A stretch of 64,000 bases of DNA from a virus (lineage: Duplodnaviria; Heunggongvirae; Uroviricota; Caudoviricetes): the IMG/VR virus record IMGVR_UViG_3300043313_001192, positions 25,598-89,597 of that record, one strand, 5' to 3'. Positions 29,227-46,689 of the stretch are shown here, in pieces; positions within the stretch are counted from its first letter, which is position 1, and each line of letters starts with the position of its first letter. The position numbers and the translations under genes were made by a program. The notes below the pieces were generated by a model, which had not been told where the DNA came from, did no database searches, and saw only the letters and a program-made list of their open reading frames with translations.

Positions 29227-29505
29227 GGCAGGACTGGCTCGGCAAGTCGGGGCGAGGCTTGAGTTGGCATGGCAGGGCTGTTGCGGTTCGGCAGGGTGCG
29301 GTGTGGTGAGGTCCGCCGTGGTGAGGCGGGGCAGGGCAGTCAAGGCTTGGTGCGCCCCGGCACGGTTTGGCTGGGCAGCCGCGACTCGGTGCGGCTCGGC
29401 ACGGCTAGGCATGGTGAGGCAGGCGGGGTCCGGCAGGGCACGGCAGCGTTTGGCAGGGCATGGCAGGCACGACTAGGCATGGCAAGGTGAGGCGTGGCGA
29501 GGCGC
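29227..29505 (+). ncRNA. orphan GGY-NN pentamer array (putative VIPR-type guide RNA locus)
   Basis: Parses as ggc-at ggc-ag ggt-gc ggt-gt ggt-ga..., with GGCAGGC punctuation at 29418 and 29462; same grammar as 42410-45893. Confidence 0.7.
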
Positions 29506-29552
29506 GGGGGAACCCGCTCGCCCGCTTCCACCCTGCTGTGTACTCTTCTCCC

Positions 29553-29948
29553 ATGGGAGGGAGCAAGCGCGGCACCGTATTACGGTCCCTGACCTGCCAC
29601 TACTGCGGTGGCAAGGCCGGGACCGAAGACCACGTCGTGCCCCGCGCCGACCTCCCGCGGCCCCTCTCGGTGTTGCCCTACTGGTTCCGCAGCCAGTTCA
29701 CCGTCCCGAGCTGCAAGGACTGCAACAACGCCAAGAGCTGGTTCCGCAGCGACTGCGCCTGCCAGCACTGCACCTGGGTTTGGGGCACCGCCCGCGCGCT
29801 GTTCCTGCCCGAGGGCTACACCGAGCGCGGCTGGATCGCGGTCCAGAAGAACCCGACCATCGCAATGCCCCTCGCGGTCCCGCGCCCTGACCGGAGCGCC
29901 TACCCCGGCACTCGGTCGGACCGCGAGTCCCAGGCCCTGTCGAACTAG
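29553..29948 (+). CDS. HNH endonuclease
   Basis: CHYCGG...EDHVVP...SCKDCNNAKS; probably leaderless (TGTG-TACTCT 29541). Confidence 0.8.
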   Translation: MGGSKRGTVLRSLTCHYCGGKAGTEDHVVPRADLPRPLSVLPYWFRSQFTVPSCKDCNNAKSWFRSDCACQHCTWVWGTARALFLPEGYTERGWIAVQKNPTIAMPLAVPRPDRSAYPGTRSDRESQALSN

Positions 29949-41508: not shown

Positions 41509-41709
41509 CTAGGTTGTTCGCATCGGGCAGTCGCTCGCGTGCCAGCCGTACTCACCGCAGTGGGTGCCGTCGGGGAACTTCGTCCCCGGACACGCGCGGA
41601 CCTTGCGCAGATCCTCGCGCTCGCGTTCCTCGGCGTACGCCGCCTCTGCTTCTTCGTCGCGGCGTCGGTACTCCTCGGCGAAGTCCGGGTCGTCGTAGTA
41701 GGAACTCAC
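41509..41709 (-). CDS. small Cys/His protein
   Basis: GTGA coupling; CPG...HC...HASDC. Confidence 0.55.
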   Translation of the reverse strand: MSSYYDDPDFAEEYRRRDEEAEAAYAEEREREDLRKVRACPGTKFPDGTHCGEYGWHASDCPMRTT

Positions 41710-41885
41710 CGGCGCGCGAGGTCCGCCACGCAGACGTAGTTGCCGGGCGTGCCCATCGGCTTGCCGCACATCGCGCAGTGCGTCGTCGGACCCTCGGTAC
41801 CGAGATGTTCGGGGCAGACGTAGTGCGAGTCGATGTTCTTGACGTGCCCGCCCTTGGCGCAGTGGCCGTACTTGCGTCGTGCCAT
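41706..41885 (-). CDS. small zinc-finger protein
   Basis: TGATG coupling; HCAKG..CPEH..HCAMCG..C. Confidence 0.6.
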   Translation of the reverse strand: MARRKYGHCAKGGHVKNIDSHYVCPEHLGTEGPTTHCAMCGKPMGTPGNYVCVADLARR

Positions 41886-42352
41886 CAGCCCGCCTTGTTG
41901 TCGCCAGCGATGTCGTCCAGGATCTCCTCGACGAAGCCCTCCATGTGCTGGTAGCGCTTCTTGAAGGTGGTCCAGTCGCGGCGCATCTGCTTCATCATCA
42001 GCTCGCGCTGGATCGGGTCCAGGATGATCTCCTCGATCGGCTCGTAGGTCGACGTCGGCGAACCGTCCGCCTCGCGCCGTACCCAGAACGCCCGGAGGTC
42101 GGCACGCTTGTTGCCGATGTCCGCCTTGTACTTCACCCGCAGCAGGTTCCCCGCCTCGTGCAGCCGCCACTTCCGCGCCGCCTCGGTGTCGTCCCAGGTG
42201 AACCGATGGTGCAGCGGGTGGTCGGGATCAGCAGCTTCCTCGACCACCACCTCGGGCGTCAGCGTGCCGCGCTTCTCGCGGATCTCCAGCAGCACGTCGC
42301 GCAGGTTGTTCGGCGTCTGGCCCTCAGTGGCCTCGTCGGTTCCGTTCGTCAT
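41885..42352 (-). CDS. conserved phage protein immediately downstream of the GGY-NN array (putative accessory protein)
   Basis: L.EIREKRGTLTPEVVVEEAADPDHPLHHRFTWDDTEAARKWRLHEA; GGGAGG RBS. Confidence 0.75.
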   Translation of the reverse strand: MTNGTDEATEGQTPNNLRDVLLEIREKRGTLTPEVVVEEAADPDHPLHHRFTWDDTEAARKWRLHEAGNLLRVKYKADIGNKRADLRAFWVRREADGSPTSTYEPIEEIILDPIQRELMMKQMRRDWTTFKKRYQHMEGFVEEILDDIAGDNKAG

Positions 42353-42409
42353 TGCGTCCCTCCCGTTTCAGGTTGGTGAATCGTACCTCACCACCTCTGT
42401 TCCGTCAGC

Positions 42410-45400
42410 AGCTTGCCGTGCCTGCCGAACCGCGCCTTGCCGCACCCACCTATCCATGCCGGTCCCAGCCTCACCACGCCTGCCTTGCCCGGCCGCGCCT
42501 AGCCTTCTCACACCGCGCCTGCCCCACCATGCCGAGCCTGTCCACACCTCACCCAGACGGGCCTGCCCAGCCACGCCTTGCCTTGCCGCACCTGACCGTG
42601 CCACGGCTGCCTGGCCGCACCACACCCAGTCGTGCCAGATCCCGCCTAGCCATCCCCTGCCTGCCTCGCCCTGCCTGACCGCACCCCACCATGCCTAGCC
42701 CCACCGCGCCTGCCATGCCGTACCAGACCTTGCCGAGCCAACCGGGCCTGCCTTGCCAAGCCAACCGCACCTAGCCCTCCGCGCCGCGCCTGTCCATGCC
42801 TAGCCCTGCCTGCCGCGCCATGCCGTACCGGAAGCTACCGGGCCGGAACACGCCGGGCCGCACCTAGCCATGCCCTGCCGAGCCTGCCTACCGTGCCGTG
42901 CCGTACCGGGCCTAGCCCCGGTCGACCATGCCTTGCCTGCCAAGCCCAACCCGGCCATGCCTAACCCTGAGCACCGCGCCACGCCTGCCTGACCAAGCCG
43001 CGCCTGACCGAACCAAGCCCCGCCGAGCCCACCTCGCCTGCCGGGCCTGGCCGTGCCTGGCCTAGCCGCACCTATCCATGCCCCGCCTGCCAAGACCCGC
43101 CGTGCCGTGCCATCGGTACCGAGCCCTACCAAACCACGCCTGCCGCGCCGTGCCAGGTGCTGCCGTGCCGACCACGCCTAACCTTGCCCCGCCTGCCCCG
43201 CCATGCCCAGTCGCACCCTGCCGCGATCGCCATGCCCAGCCGTGCCGTTCCTGCCATGCCGGACCTCGCCCTCCCGGCCATGTCGTGCCCTGCCCCGCCT
43301 GCCCTGCCGAGACTGGCCGAGCCATGACATGCCTTGCCTCGCCTGGCCGTGCCGAGCCCGGACCCGCCTGCCTTGCCATGCCGGGCCGGGCCGTGCCTAG
43401 CCGACCTAGCCTTGCCTGCCGTGCCCCGCCTAGCCTGACCGAGCCATACCCCGCCTGCCCAGCCACTCCTTGCCGTGCCTTGCCATCCGCGCCTCGCCTG
43501 CCGAACCGGACCCCGCCTTACCCAGCCACACCGACCAAACCTCGCCTGCCAAACCTGGCCTTGCCGTGCCACACCAAGACGAACCTGGACATGCCCACAC
43601 GTGCCCTGCCGACCCGAACCACACCGAGCCATGCCTGCCGCGCCACGCCTTGCCTTGCCATGTCAACCGGGCCTGGCCCTGCCGCCCGCGCCTTGCCACG
43701 CCTGCCCGACCACACCACGCCTTGTCCTGCCCACCATGTTCCGCCTGCCGGGCCTAGCCCTGCCTTGCCAGACGATCCTGGCCGCGCCTGCCCTGCCTTG
43801 AGCGCCTTGCCTCGACCCGCCGTGCCAGGACTGCCGGACCGTACCGTGCCCAGCCTCACCACGCCGTGCCTAGCCGCAGCTGCCGGACCGTGCCTTGCCC
43901 AGCCACTCCATCCGTACCTAGCCTGCCGCGCCCTGCCTTGGCCCGCCACGACCCGCCCGGACTCGCCCCGCCTAGTCATGCCTGCCCAGCCGAACCACAC
44001 CTAGCCTGACCATGCCCTGACCTGCCTGCCGAGCCACGCCGTACCGCGGAAGCCACGCCGATGCCTTGCCCCGCCTGCCCCGCCGCACCTAGCTGCACCG
44101 CACCAAGACCCGCCTGCCGCGCCTGGCCGAACCTTGAATGCCTTGCCCTCCGCGCCGCACCGAGACACACCTGCCCAGCCCCGTCGTGCCATGCCTGACC
44201 GCGCCCCGCCTGACCAAGCCTGCCTTGCCGAACCGGGCCGCACCATCCTCGCCATGCGGTGCCGTGCCCCGCCTTGCCTGCCGTGCCGCGCCCTGCCAAA
44301 CCTAGCCAAGTCGTGCCCTGCCATGACGAGCCGTGCCGGACCTGCCTCACCACGCCCAGCTCCGCCGAACTCCCCGAGCCCAGCCATGCCTGCCACACCC
44401 GGCCTTGCCACACACTGCCGCGCCCACCGATCCTGGCCGCGCCCAGCCGTGCCTGCCCGGCCCCGCCGCACCTCGCCATGCGCTGCGATACCACGCCACG
44501 CCCTCCGCGCCTGCCTGGCCCAGCCACACCGTCCCGTGCCACGCATCCCAGACCACGCCATGCCTGCCTCACCTAGCCCTGCCAAGCCCGGCCAATCCTG
44601 GGCGTGCCGGGCCGAGCCAAGCCTGCCGGACCAAGACGTGCCATCCCCTGCCGTTGCCATGCCTGGACCTGCCGCACCGAGCCACGCCTGCCTGACCGCA
44701 CCAGACCCGGCCGCACCCTGCCTAGACCACCGCGCCATGCCTGCCAGGCCCTGCCTCGTGAAGCCCAGCCCCGCCTCGCCGTGCCCAGCCAATCCGCGCC
44801 TGCCCCACCGATCCAAGCCCTGCCTTGCCTAGGCAAACCACGCCTGCCTGGCCTAGCCGGACCAAGCCGAACCCCGCCTACCCCGACCCGCCTGCCGGAC
44901 CGCACCTTGCCGTCCGCGCCGCGCCCAACGATGCCCAGCCACGCCTGCCGAACCGTGCCACGTCGTACGCCGCCAAGCCGGACCCAACCTGCCTCGCCAC
45001 ACCCAGCCTGACCGTGCCCCGCTTCACCGCGCCTGCCGCGCCTCGCCCACCAAGCCATCCTCGCCGGGACGCATCGCACCTCGCCTGCCGCGCCACGTCA
45101 TGCCACAGCTCGCCGCGACGTACCAAGCCTCGCCTGCCATGCCTCGCCTCGCCTCGCCTAGCCCAGCTCGCCATGCCCAGCCCGGCCTGCCGGGCCGCAC
45201 CGAACGATGCCGAAAGCCACCAAGCCCACCATCCCGAGCCGCACCACGCCTGCCACGCCCCTCCGAGCCTGACCACACCATGCCCTTCCTCGCCTGCCGT
45301 GCCCGACCCTGCCAACCACTCCTAGCCCTGTTCACCATGCGATGCCTGCCCGGCCGGACCGGACCGCGCCGTACCCGCCCCTGCCAATCCCTGCCTAGCC

Positions 45401-45893
45401 CTGCCTGCCACGCCGTGCCCAACCAAGCCCGGCCGGTCCCTGCCATCCCTTGCCATGCCAAGCCTGCCGTGACCCGCCTTGCCACGCCCCGCTTGCCCCG
45501 ACGCGCCTGGCCTTGCCTAGCCTGCCGAACCGTGCCCAACCGAACCAACCGCACCGTGCCCGGCCAACCCTGACCGCGCCAAGCCTGCCAAGCCCCGACA
45601 CGACTAGCCATCCCGCGCCTTGCCCACCACGCCTGCCAGACCAAGCCAAGCCGTACCATCCGCGCCTTGCCGCCCACGCCGTGCCGCGCCCCGCCTGCCA
45701 TGCCGTGCCGCGCCTCACCGCGCCAAGCCTCATCACGCCATGCCCAGCCCAGCCTGCCGGACCTGGACCCGCCGTGCCGTGCCTAGACCTGCCTGCCATG
45801 CCGCGTCGACCGGGCCAAGAATCCCATGCCCCGCCCCGCCTAGCCTGCCCCGCCGAGTGCTGCCCTGCCGCGCCTAGCCTTGCCATCCGTGCC
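42410..45893 (-). ncRNA. ~3.5-kb array of GGY-NN pentamers punctuated by GGCAGGC (putative VIPR-type guide RNA array)
   Basis: Plus strand parses as RCC-NN repeats; 59 exact GCCTGCC by manual count plus degenerate copies, spaced mostly 38-65 nt in 5-nt steps; NN dinucleotides differ between units. Confidence 0.85.
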
Positions 45894-45903
45894 AGGGCAC
45901 AGA

Positions 45904-45938
45904 ACGAGGCAGGACACCCCCCACGGGTCCTGCCTCGT
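45904..45938 (-). other. 12-bp-stem hairpin between the RAMP-like gene and the array
   Basis: ACGAGGCAGGAC / GTCCTGCCTCGT with an 11-nt loop. Confidence 0.75.
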
Positions 45939-45955
45939 CCGGCTCTGATGTGCTG

Positions 45956-46624
45956 CTACTTGATCTCCACCGAGCGGGTCGGGTCGATCATGAAGGTGCC
46001 CATGTCGCCCTTCTTCTCCGGACGCCACTCGCCGACGCCCACACCCAGGCCACCGGCCTCGATCAGCGAGAGCACCGACTCCCTGGTCAACATGGACTTC
46101 ACGTAGGTCACTTCGAGGGTCGTCGACCACTCGGTGAACTGCGGCCGGTAGCGCAGGTCGGTGCCGCCGTTGCCGACGCGCACGACGTCCTCACGCATGA
46201 TCGGCTCGCCCTCGATCCGGACCATCATCTGACCCTCGACCTTGGACATCTCGCCGCTGAAGAACAGCGTCTGCCGGAGGCTGACCATGGTCACCGACTT
46301 GTCGAAGAACCGGGCCGCGGAGACGGTCGCGGCCTTGAACGCGATCGACGGGAAGCCGTAGCCGCCGTCGTCCATCTTGTAGGCCGCGGCCTCGTAGTCG
46401 CCCTCGGGATCCTTGGGCGCCTTCGGGCTCTTGCGGCCCTGCATCGCGTCGAGCATCTGACGCTTCGCCTTCTCCGAGAACTTGTGCATGATCAGCGGCG
46501 CGGATCCGACGATCGGGATCAGCAGCGTCTCGGTGCCGATCCGGGAGATCTCGATCGCCGGGGCGCTGTCGTCAGCTGCGGGAGGAGGAGTCGCTGCGGT
46601 CTTCTTGGCAGGCTTCGTGGCCAT
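45956..46624 (-). CDS. Cas7/RAMP-like RNA-binding protein (putative Vipr effector)
   Basis: N-terminal IPIVGSAPLIMH strand, YGFPSIAFKAA helix, C-terminal Gly-rich loop AGGLGVGVGEWRPEKKGDMGTF; AAGGAC RBS; abuts the pentamer array. Confidence 0.7.
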   Translation of the reverse strand: MATKPAKKTAATPPPAADDSAPAIEISRIGTETLLIPIVGSAPLIMHKFSEKAKRQMLDAMQGRKSPKAPKDPEGDYEAAAYKMDDGGYGFPSIAFKAATVSAARFFDKSVTMVSLRQTLFFSGEMSKVEGQMMVRIEGEPIMREDVVRVGNGGTDLRYRPQFTEWSTTLEVTYVKSMLTRESVLSLIEAGGLGVGVGEWRPEKKGDMGTFMIDPTRSVEIK

Positions 46625-46678
46625 GTGTCGTTCCGTCCTTGAGGTTGTGTTCCCCACCTTGGGGAATCAGGTGACGGC

Positions 46679-46689
46679 AACGTAGCACA
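46679..46689 (-). promoter_or_regulatory. putative promoter of the RAMP/array operon
   Basis: TGTGC-TACGTT on the minus strand, same style as the early promoters. Confidence 0.4.

What the first reader, a model, noticed from the sequence alone, without database searches (positions are those of the whole stretch)
41885..46689. Phage RNA-guided system candidate: Cas7/RAMP-like gene + 3.5-kb GGY-NN guide array + accessory gene (VIPR-type)
Seen: one minus-strand unit with a putative promoter (46679), a 222-aa protein with RAMP hallmarks (IxGxxPLxxH first strand, C-terminal GxGxGEWRPxxxGxxGxF loop), a hairpin, a long array of constant GGY triplets alternating with variable dinucleotides, then a conserved ORF. 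Established: RAMP/Cas7 proteins polymerise along guide RNAs. There is no CRISPR array, cas1/cas2 or nuclease here. Inference: the constant GGY is the protein-binding handle and the NN pairs carry target information. This matches my recollection of recently reported VIPR (viral interference programmable repeat) systems acting by non-contiguous DNA recognition against competing phages; that recollection is unverified here. About 65 units would be a very large guide repertoire.
Basis: partly seen in the sequence, partly recalled or inferred. Interest (0 to 1): 0.95.

Follow-up and report, generated by a model that had tools for sequence, protein, structure and literature searches.

The report
Giant VIPR guide-RNA array in actinophage
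A 177-kb soil phage of high-GC bacteria carries a genuine VIPR system, the CRISPR-related RNA-guided DNA-silencing system first described in 2026, and its 3.5-kb guide array (about 65 to 110 guides) is far larger than in any other Vipr locus I sampled.

Summary
On the minus strand lie a 222-aa gene (45956-46624), a conserved hairpin, a 3.48-kb tract of GGY-NN pentamers (42411-45893) and a conserved 155-aa gene (41885-42352).

VIPR is real and published (three 2026 bioRxiv preprints). The protein is a Vipr:
- It matches the solved SUSP1 Vipr chain by sequence (E 1e-5).
- It keeps the GGY-binding residues.
- Its model (pLDDT 94) matches Cas7/Csm3 folds.
- Its five best AlphaFold-cluster hits are exactly the five founding Vipr accessions of the discovery paper.

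The array has 605 five-base units and 111 four-base units, 68 of them GGCA, against only 2 six-base units. This is the "staggered, 1-nt overlap" architecture the paper mentions.

What is new is scale and detail:
- Four relatives whose DNA I could read hold 3.5-4.1 kb arrays. In 79 other Vipr loci the median was 260 nt and the maximum 1,730 nt.
- The register breaks are the best-conserved positions.
- A few core guides persist in distant relatives.
- A second six-guide array lies 13 kb away.
- The accessory gene belongs to an uncharacterised family.

Targets remain unknown. This scan has already noted VIPR loci in at least 100 other genomes. Verdict: a new member of a known kind.

The parts
46679..46687 (-). 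Conserved TGCTACGTT element (extended -10-like, TGnTAnnnT) upstream of vipr; putative promoter
   Evidence: Kept as TGCTAYGTT in L006, L007 and L009 upstream regions. Not detected by the sigma-70 consensus scan. Inference only.
46650..46666 (-). 5'-UTR hairpin TTCCCC-AAGGT-GGGGAA before the vipr start codon
   Evidence: The stem is conserved while the loop varies in L007 and L009.
45956..46624 (-). vipr gene: 222-aa stand-alone RAMP (Cas7-like) protein
   Evidence: phmmer hit to PDB 36pp_D 'SUSP1 Vipr protein', E 1.1e-5. AlphaFold2 model pLDDT 94.4. Foldseek PDB hits are all Cas7/Csm3/Cmr4. The top five AFDB clusters are the five founding Vipr accessions. Matches phrog_4652.
45902..45940 (-). 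Conserved 13-14 bp hairpin between vipr and the array (terminator/attenuator or 5' boundary of the array transcript)
   Evidence: Fold -38.2 kcal/mol, z -2.99. Compensatory changes in L007 and L009.
42411..45893 (-). Staggered vrRNA array: 719 GGY-NN units, punctuated by 111 four-base units (68 of them GGCA)
   Evidence: Collinear with a 4.1-kb array in relative L006. Arrays of 3.5-4.1 kb in L007 and L009.
42372..42385 (-). Invariant TACGATTCACCAAC element between the last repeat and the vap ribosome-binding site (TAnnnT -10-like box, or a 3' tail of the array)
   Evidence: Identical in all five aligned relatives, where the flanks vary.
41885..42352 (-). vap-like accessory gene, 155 aa, uncharacterised family (phrog_15946)
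   Evidence: Homologues follow the array in Gordonia phages ODay and Pipp (37% and 34% identity) and follow vipr in Mycobacterium phage Saal (24%). 54 homologues found. No Pfam, NCBIfam or fold match.
29227..29506 (+). Second, detached mini-array: 57 units (51 five-mers, 6 four-mers), about six guides with the same GGCA punctuation, followed by a GCGGG/CCCGC hairpin at 29503-29517
   Evidence: Conserved in the sister phage G001.

Best explanation
This is a VIPR (Viral Interference Programmable Repeat) locus of a 177-kb soil phage of high-GC (probably actinobacterial) hosts.

Proposed mechanism:
- The minus-strand unit is transcribed from upstream of vipr, possibly with further starts.
- Vipr, a minimal Cas7-like RAMP, polymerises on the array RNA, one protomer per five-base repeat. 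It buries each GGY and exposes each NN dinucleotide.
- Each filament then reads double-stranded DNA by pairing NN with target NN while skipping every third target base, and it silences transcription there.
- The 3.5-kb tract is a 'staggered' array. About every 8-13 repeats a unit has four bases instead of five, mostly GGCA followed by GGC, so one G serves as the last N of one guide and the first G of the next.
- I propose that this one-base register break ends one filament and starts the next. One transcript would then yield about 65 guides (up to about 110 if every break counts) without tails or ribozymes.
- The 155-aa downstream gene is the accessory (vap) partner of this actinophage clade. 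Its role is unknown.

Shown here: the identity of the protein, the array grammar, their co-occurrence and their conservation.

Taken from the literature on phage SUSP1: RNA binding, the skip-one rule and silencing.

Inferred: processing at register breaks, and use against competing mobile elements.

The confidence of 0.88 is for the claim that this is a genuine VIPR locus with a staggered array. The register-break processing step alone I put at about 0.3-0.4.
For: Protein:
- Sequence match to the solved SUSP1 Vipr, with R138 and D177-W178-R179 aligned to R160 and E199-W200-R201. H17 aligns to H47. The roles of these residues are given.
- RAMP fold at pLDDT 94. Foldseek matches only Cas7-type chains.
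- The five founding Vipr accessions are the top five AFDB-cluster hits.

Array:
- Lag-5 periodicity and GGY/NN composition.
- 111 four-base units against 2 six-base units. This fits the paper's 'staggered arrays ... 1 nt overlapping positions'.

Selection, measured against the sister phage L006:
- Substitution rates are G1 2.9%, G2 7.1%, Y3 10.6% (33 of 43 are C<->T), N4 4.9%, N5 7.8%, and four-mers 1.0%.
- Fisher test, four-mers against five-mers, p = 1.6e-5.
- Four guides keep 19-21 of 22, or 15-16 of 16, NN bases in distant relatives while their GGY scaffolds drift.

Co-occurrence:
- Same-strand arrays lie beside vipr in Gordonia, Mycobacterium and Escherichia phages.
- The same holds in 62 of 79 genomic Vipr loci, and never on the opposite strand.

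No self-targeting above shuffled-guide nulls, as the papers report for other systems.

NN composition fits codon positions 1-2 of a 67%-GC genome far better than the other codon frames. A uniform model fits equally well.
Against: - No experiment on this locus exists. Transcription rests on a few identical contigs in one soil metatranscriptome, which may contain DNA.
- No target was found for any guide. Eight IMG/VR scans, one metagenome scan and one prokaryote-genome pattern scan gave only chance-level hits.
- The aspartate that reads G1 in SUSP1 is glutamate here.
- 43 of the 111 register breaks are not GGCA, and they cut some units into runs of only 1-5 repeats. Not every break can therefore be a guide boundary.
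- 17% of units depart from GGY.
- The accessory protein shows no detectable relation to the SUSP1-type vap1, and no DNA-binding fold could be recognised.
Confidence: 0.88

Rival explanations
1. The array is not cut into many guides. It acts as one or a few very long RNAs coated by Vipr, for example as a sponge or scaffold, or as a filament whose register breaks are tolerated kinks rather than boundaries.
For: Nothing here shows RNA ends. There is no tail, ribozyme or Rfam element between units. Many runs between breaks are too short (1-5 repeats) to be guides on their own.
Against: The four-base units are the most conserved positions of the array. The spacing of GGCAGGC, mostly 39-63 nt or 8-13 repeats, equals the published guide length of 9-16 repeats. 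The discovery paper describes staggered arrays as giving separate vrRNAs. A metagenomic DNA contig from one run differs from the window by skipping 48, and another by 49 bases, as expected if units are modules.
Confidence: 0.1
2. A working VIPR system whose guides regulate the phage's own genes or host genes, as a temporal control device, rather than competing phages or satellites.
For: No competitor target was found. The array is vertically inherited and largely conserved between sister phages. That pattern would also suit fixed regulatory targets.
Against: No guide matches the phage's own 177-kb genome or the sister genome above shuffled-guide nulls. One core guide, scanned for exact matches only, found nothing in one genome each of 185,579 prokaryote species. 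Published natural targets are satellites, prophages and other VIPR loci.
Confidence: 0.08
3. The tract is an ordinary G-rich minisatellite, or low-complexity coding sequence, that merely sits next to a RAMP-like gene. It would be unrelated to RNA guidance: for example G-quadruplex DNA, a recombination hotspot, or Gly/Ala/Arg-rich ORFs.
For: Long ORFs of up to 308 aa are open on both strands of the tract. GG every five bases could form two-tetrad quadruplexes.
Against: A five-base period with 111 one-base register shifts cannot keep a reading frame. Substitutions follow the five-base position classes. The same kind of tract sits on the vipr strand in 62 of 79 unrelated genomes and in phages of four host genera. 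The protein keeps the residues that read GGY.
Confidence: 0.02

Closest known systems
VIPR systems with 'staggered' vrRNA arrays (discovery preprint bioRxiv 10.64898/2026.04.26.720920, fig. S18)
   Same: Both have a stand-alone Vipr RAMP, GGY/NN pentamers and neighbouring guides that share one base. They have no tails or ribozymes between guides. The context is viral, and an accessory gene follows.
   Different: The size: 3.5-4.1 kb and about 65-110 guides in this clade, against a median of 260 nt and a maximum of 1,730 nt in the 79 loci I measured. The preprint's main text gives no array of this size. Its supplementary tables were not available to me, so I cannot say which of types I-VII this is, or whether this clade is among its 667 systems.
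Type II VIPR of Escherichia phage SUSP1 (Vipr + vap1 + four vrRNAs; structures in bioRxiv 10.64898/2026.04.26.720927, PDB 36pp)
   Same: The protein is homologous (E 1e-5 over the thumb and G-loop) and keeps H, R and the (D/E)WR residues that hold GGY. The repeat grammar is the same. The vipr gene, an accessory gene and the array lie on one strand.
   Different: Identity is only about 22%. SUSP1 guides are separate RNAs of about 100 nt, each with 9-16 repeats and a 3' pseudoknot tail. Here the guides abut through a one-base overlap and no tail is seen. The accessory protein is unrelated to the one encoded next to vipr in the SUSP1-like phage ESCO56. Here the array lies between vipr and vap.
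VIPR loci of cultured actinophages (Gordonia phages Pipp, UmaThurman, ODay, Ecliptus; Mycobacterium phages Saal, Donkeykong and others), annotated as hypothetical proteins
   Same: Vipr is 46-62% identical. The accessory-gene family is the same (24-37% identity). A GGY array lies beside vipr.
   Different: Their arrays span about 350-450 bp in 50-60-kb temperate phages. In Pipp the array is annotated as a protein gene (gene 43). In Saal the array lies upstream of vipr.
Cas7/Csm3 backbone subunits of class 1 CRISPR-Cas effectors (e.g. PDB 6xn3_F, 6ifn_F)
   Same: They share the RRM core, glycine-rich loop and thumb. They polymerise along a guide RNA with periodic base flipping (Foldseek E 2e-6, probability 1.00).
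   Different: Sequence identity is 8-16%. There is no CRISPR repeat-spacer array and no Cas genes in the locus. The guide is read discontinuously, two of every five bases, and is not an acquired spacer.

Membership tests
VIPR system | Vipr protein with a RAMP fold (RRM core, glycine-rich loop, thumb) | tested here: met
   AlphaFold2 model pLDDT 94.4. Foldseek against the PDB gives 98 hits with E <= 0.001, led by Csm3, type VII Cas7, Cmr4 and Cas7-11.
VIPR system | Homology to established Vipr proteins | tested here: met
   phmmer E 1.1e-5 to PDB 36pp_D 'SUSP1 Vipr protein'. The top five AFDB clusters are A0A0F9A1L0, X1U2U4, A0A661D0E2, A0A1F4YLN4 and A0A2D6XG06. These are the five founding accessions listed in the discovery paper.
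VIPR system | Residues that hold the GGY motif (SUSP1 H17, R138, D177, W178, R179) | tested here: met
   They align to H47, R160, E199, W200 and R201 (roles). D177 is a conservative glutamate here. R160 and R201 are invariant, and E199 and W200 are at least 90% conserved, in the alignments of relatives. K33 of SUSP1 could not be placed reliably.
VIPR system | Tandem GGY/NN (YNNGG) repeats next to vipr on the same strand | tested here: met
   719 units, 83% starting with GGY, with all 16 NN dinucleotides present. The caller is specific within the 177-kb genome.
VIPR system | Array architecture of a described kind (separate tailed vrRNAs, staggered with 1-nt overlap, or ribozyme-interspersed) | tested here: met
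   The staggered kind: 111 four-base units against 2 six-base units, 68 of them GGCA followed by GGC (description). No hammerhead or other Rfam match. No repeated tail between units.
VIPR system | Accessory vap gene in the operon | tested here: inconclusive
   A conserved 155-aa gene follows the array here and in Gordonia and Mycobacterium phage loci. It is unrelated to the SUSP1-type vap1 and has no recognisable fold. Whether it is one of vap2-6 cannot be told without the paper's supplementary data.
VIPR system | Viral or proviral genome, no CRISPR array or cas genes in the locus | tested here: met
   The genome is a 177-kb IMG/VR virus record with direct terminal repeats, rated complete. The neighbours are tail-fibre-like and small phage genes. 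No repeat-spacer array lies in 41-47 kb. The rest of the genome was not screened for cas genes.
VIPR system | vrRNAs are expressed and bound by Vipr | not testable with these tools
   The only hint is a few identical contigs on the array (43154-43323) and on vipr in one soil metatranscriptome run. DNA carry-over cannot be excluded.
VIPR system | Guides match DNA of other mobile elements under the skip-one rule | tested here: inconclusive
   There are no self matches. The single lead is guide 44741-44800, which matches 18 of 22 bases in frame in a small-terminase gene of an IMG/VR phage. That hit count is no higher than chance. The other scans gave nothing or chance hits.
CRISPR-Cas class 1 effector (Cas7/Csm3) | Cas7 encoded with other cas genes and a repeat-spacer array | tested here: not met
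   It is a single RAMP gene. The locus has no CRISPR repeats or cas genes. The nearest structural clusters are the non-CRISPR Vipr group.

The most novel reading that the evidence does not exclude
A one-base register break (a four-base unit, usually GGCA before GGC) may by itself be the punctuation of the array. It would stop one Vipr filament and seed the next, so a single 3.5-kb transcript would be parcelled into about 65-110 guides with no tail, ribozyme or dedicated nuclease. This clade of about 175-kb soil phages would then keep the largest guide libraries known for a VIPR system. It would combine a small conserved core, possibly aimed at packaging genes such as the small terminase of rival phages or satellites, with a fast-turning periphery.
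Probability: 0.3. Interest if true: 0.6.

Novelty: new member of a known kind. Interest (0 to 1): 0.42.

Why it matters
VIPR was described only in 2026, and its biology is known from a few Escherichia and Pseudomonas phage systems with one to four guides. A clade whose arrays hold 60-110 guides, are inherited collinearly and can be compared across relatives gives natural data on three open questions:
- How guides are delimited without tails.
- Which positions are under selection. Here G1 and the register breaks are the most constrained, Y3 toggles between C and T, and NN is kept in the core guides.
- How guide repertoires turn over.

It also shows that many cultured Gordonia and Mycobacterium phages carry unannotated VIPR loci. 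In Gordonia phage Pipp the array is annotated as a protein gene. These phages are tractable hosts for experiments. The kind of system itself is already known, so the value lies in the detail, not in the concept.

Tried and rejected
Target search:
- Exact skip-one patterns from nine guides were scanned. Seven scans of IMG/VR used 16-18 specified bases. Two gave 0 hits. Two gave 22 and 9 hits, all chance-like after extension and mostly in low-GC contigs.
- Core guide 45405-45464 gave 3 hits in low-GC contigs, with NN at codon positions 2-3 of what look like related proteins. I rejected these as targets.
- Core guide 44564-44623 gave 0 hits.
- Core guide 44741-44800 gave one sequence, present in two sister samples, in a small-terminase gene with the skipped base at the wobble position. 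It matches only 18 of 22 bases, misses the conserved eleventh NN, and its count is what chance predicts. No other guide converges on that contig.
- The 20-base version of that guide gave one intergenic hit in JGI metagenomes, judged chance, and none in the prokaryote genomes.
- No guide matches the sister phage genome outside its array.

RNA evidence:
- No RNA holder was listed for the array alone.
- One metatranscriptome run holds a few contigs. This is not proof of transcription.

Other searches:
- megablast of the locus against GenBank phages found no match.
- The sigma-70 promoter scan found none, and the terminator scan found nothing in the locus.
- The accessory protein has no Pfam, NCBIfam or named Atlas cluster. 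Foldseek against the PDB gave no hit with E < 0.2. VIA-align reached at most Z 4.7, on the long C-terminal helix only. AFDB hits are uncharacterised homologues.
- The 60-aa zinc-ribbon-like ORF 41706-41888, which overlaps the vap stop codon, is not conserved in relatives and was dropped from the system.
- The first alignment was too diverse for a genome scan.
- The supplementary tables of the discovery paper are not held, so the VIPR type and vap number could not be assigned.

Full report
WHAT IS THERE

The window is part of a 176,996-bp IMG/VR virus record with direct terminal repeats, rated complete. Its GC content is 66.6%, and it recurs in soil metagenomes of many studies. On the minus strand, from upstream to downstream, lie:
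- a conserved TGCTACGTT element (46679-46687) and a small 5'-UTR hairpin (46650-46666);
- a 222-aa ORF (45956-46624);
- a strong hairpin (45902-45940, -38 kcal/mol, z -3.0) that relatives keep through compensatory changes;
- a 3.48-kb G-rich tract (42411-45893);
- an invariant TACGATTCACCAAC element (42372-42385);
- a 155-aa ORF (41885-42352).

THE TRACT

G shows an autocorrelation of 0.46 at lag 5. A dynamic-programming parse gives 719 units: 605 five-mers, 111 four-mers, 2 six-mers and 1 seven-mer. Positions 1 and 2 of the five-mers are G in 95% and 90% of cases, and position 3 is C or T in 95%. Positions 4-5 use all 16 dinucleotides.

The asymmetry of 111 four-base units against 2 six-base units is the key anatomical fact. 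68 of the four-mers are GGCA followed by GGC. GGCAGGC recurs 59 times, mostly 39-63 nt apart, which is 8-13 repeats. Read as overlapping pentamers, the last base of one series is the first G of the next.

The caller that finds this tract finds only one other place in the 177-kb genome. That is a 280-nt array with the same grammar (51 five-mers, 6 four-mers, about six units) on the plus strand at 29227-29506, followed by a small hairpin. It is conserved in the sister phage.

WHAT IS KNOWN

Three 2026 preprints describe VIPR systems.
- The discovery paper reports a stand-alone RAMP protein (Vipr). It reports vrRNAs made of 9-16 YNNGG repeats in which GGY is constant and NN variable. DNA is recognised by pairing NN with the target while skipping one base. 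Natural targets lie in satellites, prophages and other VIPR loci. There are seven types with six vap families. [quoted passage not shown]
- The structure paper shows one protomer per repeat. G1 is read by H17 and D177, G2 is held by R138 and W178, and Y3 sits in a pocket with R179.
- The third paper shows that SUSP1 uses VIPR against a satellite, and it gives a guide caller and scoring nulls.

IS THE PROTEIN A VIPR?

Yes.
- phmmer against the PDB finds only 'SUSP1 Vipr protein' (36pp_D, E 1.1e-5). R138 aligns to R160, and D177-W178-R179 to E199-W200-R201. H17 aligns to H47 in a multiple alignment with a SUSP1-like phage protein.
- The family is large: 3,706 representative clusters at E <= 0.001.
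- An AlphaFold2 model built on 65 diverse relatives has pLDDT 94.4.
- Foldseek against the PDB returns only Cas7-type chains at the top: Csm3, type VII Cas7, Cmr4 and Cas7-11 (E about 2e-6, probability 1.00).
- Against the AlphaFold cluster library the five best hits are A0A0F9A1L0, X1U2U4, A0A661D0E2, A0A1F4YLN4 and A0A2D6XG06. These are exactly the five accessions the discovery paper names as the founding Vipr hits.

DO PROTEIN AND ARRAY GO TOGETHER?

tblastn finds homologues in Gordonia phages (Pipp, UmaThurman, ODay, Ecliptus; 58-61% identity), in 27 Mycobacterium phage records (46%), and in Felixounavirus-type Escherichia and Salmonella phages. In each locus I opened, a GGY array lies beside vipr on its strand. 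The array spans about 350-400 bp downstream in Pipp and ODay, where in Pipp it is annotated as gene 43. It spans about 450 bp upstream in Saal and about 250 bp upstream in the SUSP1-like phage ESCO56.

In 79 Vipr loci recovered from prokaryote genomes, 62 have such an array within 6 kb. It is always on the vipr strand and never on the other. Array length has a median of 260 nt and a maximum of 1,730 nt. The closest of these loci (58-74% identity) are mostly in Actinomycetota, including Kribbellaceae, Thermoactinospora, Micromonosporaceae, Microbacterium, Streptomyces, Nocardia and Nonomuraea. That fits a high-GC Gram-positive host.

THE CLADE WITH GIANT ARRAYS

Close relatives of this phage all have 3.5-4.1 kb between vipr and the accessory gene.
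- L006 (114-kb IMG/VR contig, Vipr 96-98% identical): array of about 4.1 kb.
- L007 (175-kb contig): 3.5 kb.
- L009 (68-kb contig): 4.1 kb.
- Two further contigs, for which only gene calls were available, show the same gap.

GGCAGGC occurs 58-66 times in each array. This clade's arrays are therefore about twice the largest, and about 13 times the median, of the other loci I measured.

SELECTION ON THE ARRAY

The window and L006 arrays are collinear at 90-94% identity. Over 2,362 aligned positions the substitution rates are G1 2.9%, G2 7.1%, Y3 10.6%, N4 4.9%, N5 7.8% and four-base units 1.0% (3 of 295). At Y3, 33 of the 43 changes are C<->T. Four-mers against five-mers gives Fisher p = 1.6e-5. 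Y3 varies more than NN (p 0.012) and G1 varies less (p 0.010).

So the register breaks are the most constrained positions. Y behaves as 'any pyrimidine'. Between sister phages the NN bases are conserved rather than hypervariable, as expected if guides must keep matching their targets.

Against the more distant L007, L008 and L009, most of the array cannot be aligned. In the blastn-aligned pieces G1 and G2 are conserved (5.5% and 11.4% changed), while Y3, N4 and N5 vary (18-25%).

Four guides stand out as a conserved core (window 45405-45464, 44945-44989, 44741-44800, 44564-44623). They keep 19-21 of 22, or 15-16 of 16, NN bases in L007 and L009 while their scaffolds drift, for example GGC to GGT, GTC or CAC. 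These four were chosen for their NN identity, so the contrast with the scaffolds is partly a product of that choice.

A metagenomic DNA contig from one run skips 48, and another 49 bases relative to the window, which is about one unit. Contigs in repeats must be read with caution.

THE ACCESSORY GENE

The 155-aa protein has 54 database homologues. It is 37%, 34% and 24% identical to the genes that follow the array or vipr in ODay, Pipp and Saal. It belongs to phrog_15946, of unknown function.

A profile comparison finds no relation to the gene next to vipr in the SUSP1-like phage. Its model (pLDDT 81, pTM 0.44) has three short helices, a long helix, a beta-hairpin and a 38-residue C-terminal helix. 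It matches nothing informative. I call it the vap of this clade by position and conservation only.

The 60-aa zinc-ribbon-like ORF that overlaps its stop codon is not conserved.

TARGETS

Using the published skip-one rule, no in-register run of seven or more repeats matches the phage's own genome above shuffled-guide nulls. None matches the sister genome outside its array. The papers report the same absence of self-targeting for other systems.

In a 67%-GC genome the NN composition is about 50% GC. It fits codon positions 1-2 (skipped base at the wobble position) much better than the other frames: log-likelihood -2.77 to -2.85 per NN against -3.3 to -3.6. A uniform model fits as well, so this is only compatible, not diagnostic.

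Exact-pattern scans gave no convincing target. The best lead is core guide 44741-44800. Nine consecutive NN of this guide match a 206-aa gene directly upstream of a large-terminase gene in IMGVR_UViG_3300033182_000503, with the skipped base at the wobble position. The guide spells SKHPSVQKA there. One hit per 18-base pattern is what chance predicts. The two remaining NN do not match, and no other guide converges on that contig. I rate it a lead at about one in four.

EXPRESSION

A soil metatranscriptome run holds contigs identical to 43154-43323 (inside the array) and to the 3' half of vipr. This is compatible with transcription but does not prove it. No Rfam family, hammerheads included, matches the locus.

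MECHANISM

By homology with SUSP1, Vipr should coat the array RNA one protomer per repeat, hide GGY and present NN. It should then bind double-stranded DNA through gapped pairing and repress transcription.

The array-specific inference rests on three points: the units abut with a one-base overlap, the breaks are the most conserved positions, and no tail or ribozyme intervenes. From these I infer that the register break itself delimits the filaments, and that unprotected junctions are then trimmed. Two things remain unexplained. It is not clear whether the 43 non-GGCA breaks also act as boundaries. And it is not clear what a four-base unit does to target pairing.

VERDICT

The system is a member of a family published in 2026, including its staggered-array variant, and this scan has already recorded VIPR loci in at least 100 other genomes. 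What is particular here:
- the scale of the array, with a conserved clade of giant arrays;
- the measured selection pattern;
- the core-versus-periphery guide structure;
- the detached second array;
- the uncharacterised accessory family shared with cultured actinophages.

Noticed in passing
window 29227-29517 (+): A second, detached GGY-NN mini-array of about six guides with the same GGCA punctuation. It lies 13 kb from the main locus on the other strand, in a divergent intergenic region, and ends in a GCGGG/CCCGC hairpin. It is conserved in the sister phage.
   Followed up: partly
window 29554-29948 (+): The ORF just after the mini-array has paired CxxC motifs and conserved His and Asn (CHYCGG...H...CKDCNN), which looks like an HNH-type endonuclease. 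Whether it is linked to the mini-array was not examined.
   Followed up: no
L002 5611-5880 (Gordonia phage Pipp gene 43) and other cultured actinophages: In GenBank, the VIPR array of phage Pipp is annotated as a hypothetical protein gene. The vipr and vap genes of Gordonia phages, and of the 27 Mycobacterium phage records, are 'hypothetical protein'. These cultured phages carry unannotated VIPR systems.
   Followed up: partly
window 42411-45893, in DNA runs X1-X3: Soil metagenome contigs differ from the window by skipping about one unit (48, 49, 50, 67 or 92 bases) or larger blocks. This suggests unit-level gain and loss between strains, though assembly errors in repeats could look the same.
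   Followed up: no
window 41706-41888 (-): A 60-aa zinc-ribbon-like ORF whose start overlaps the vap stop codon (ATGA). It has no homologue in the relatives examined.
   Followed up: yes
L044, L045, L046 (IMG/VR contigs, 33-45% GC): The nine-NN core of guide 45405-45464 hits three low-GC contigs, all in the same codon register (NN at positions 2-3) of ORFs that share a K-x-W-[ST]-D motif. They are probably one protein family matched by chance composition.
   Followed up: partly
L007 1-3654 and the matching contig: In relatives, the genes upstream of vipr are very large collagen-repeat proteins (Pfam Collagen), presumably tail fibres. In the window the upstream genes, of 785 and 308 aa, also look like fibre proteins.
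   Followed up: no
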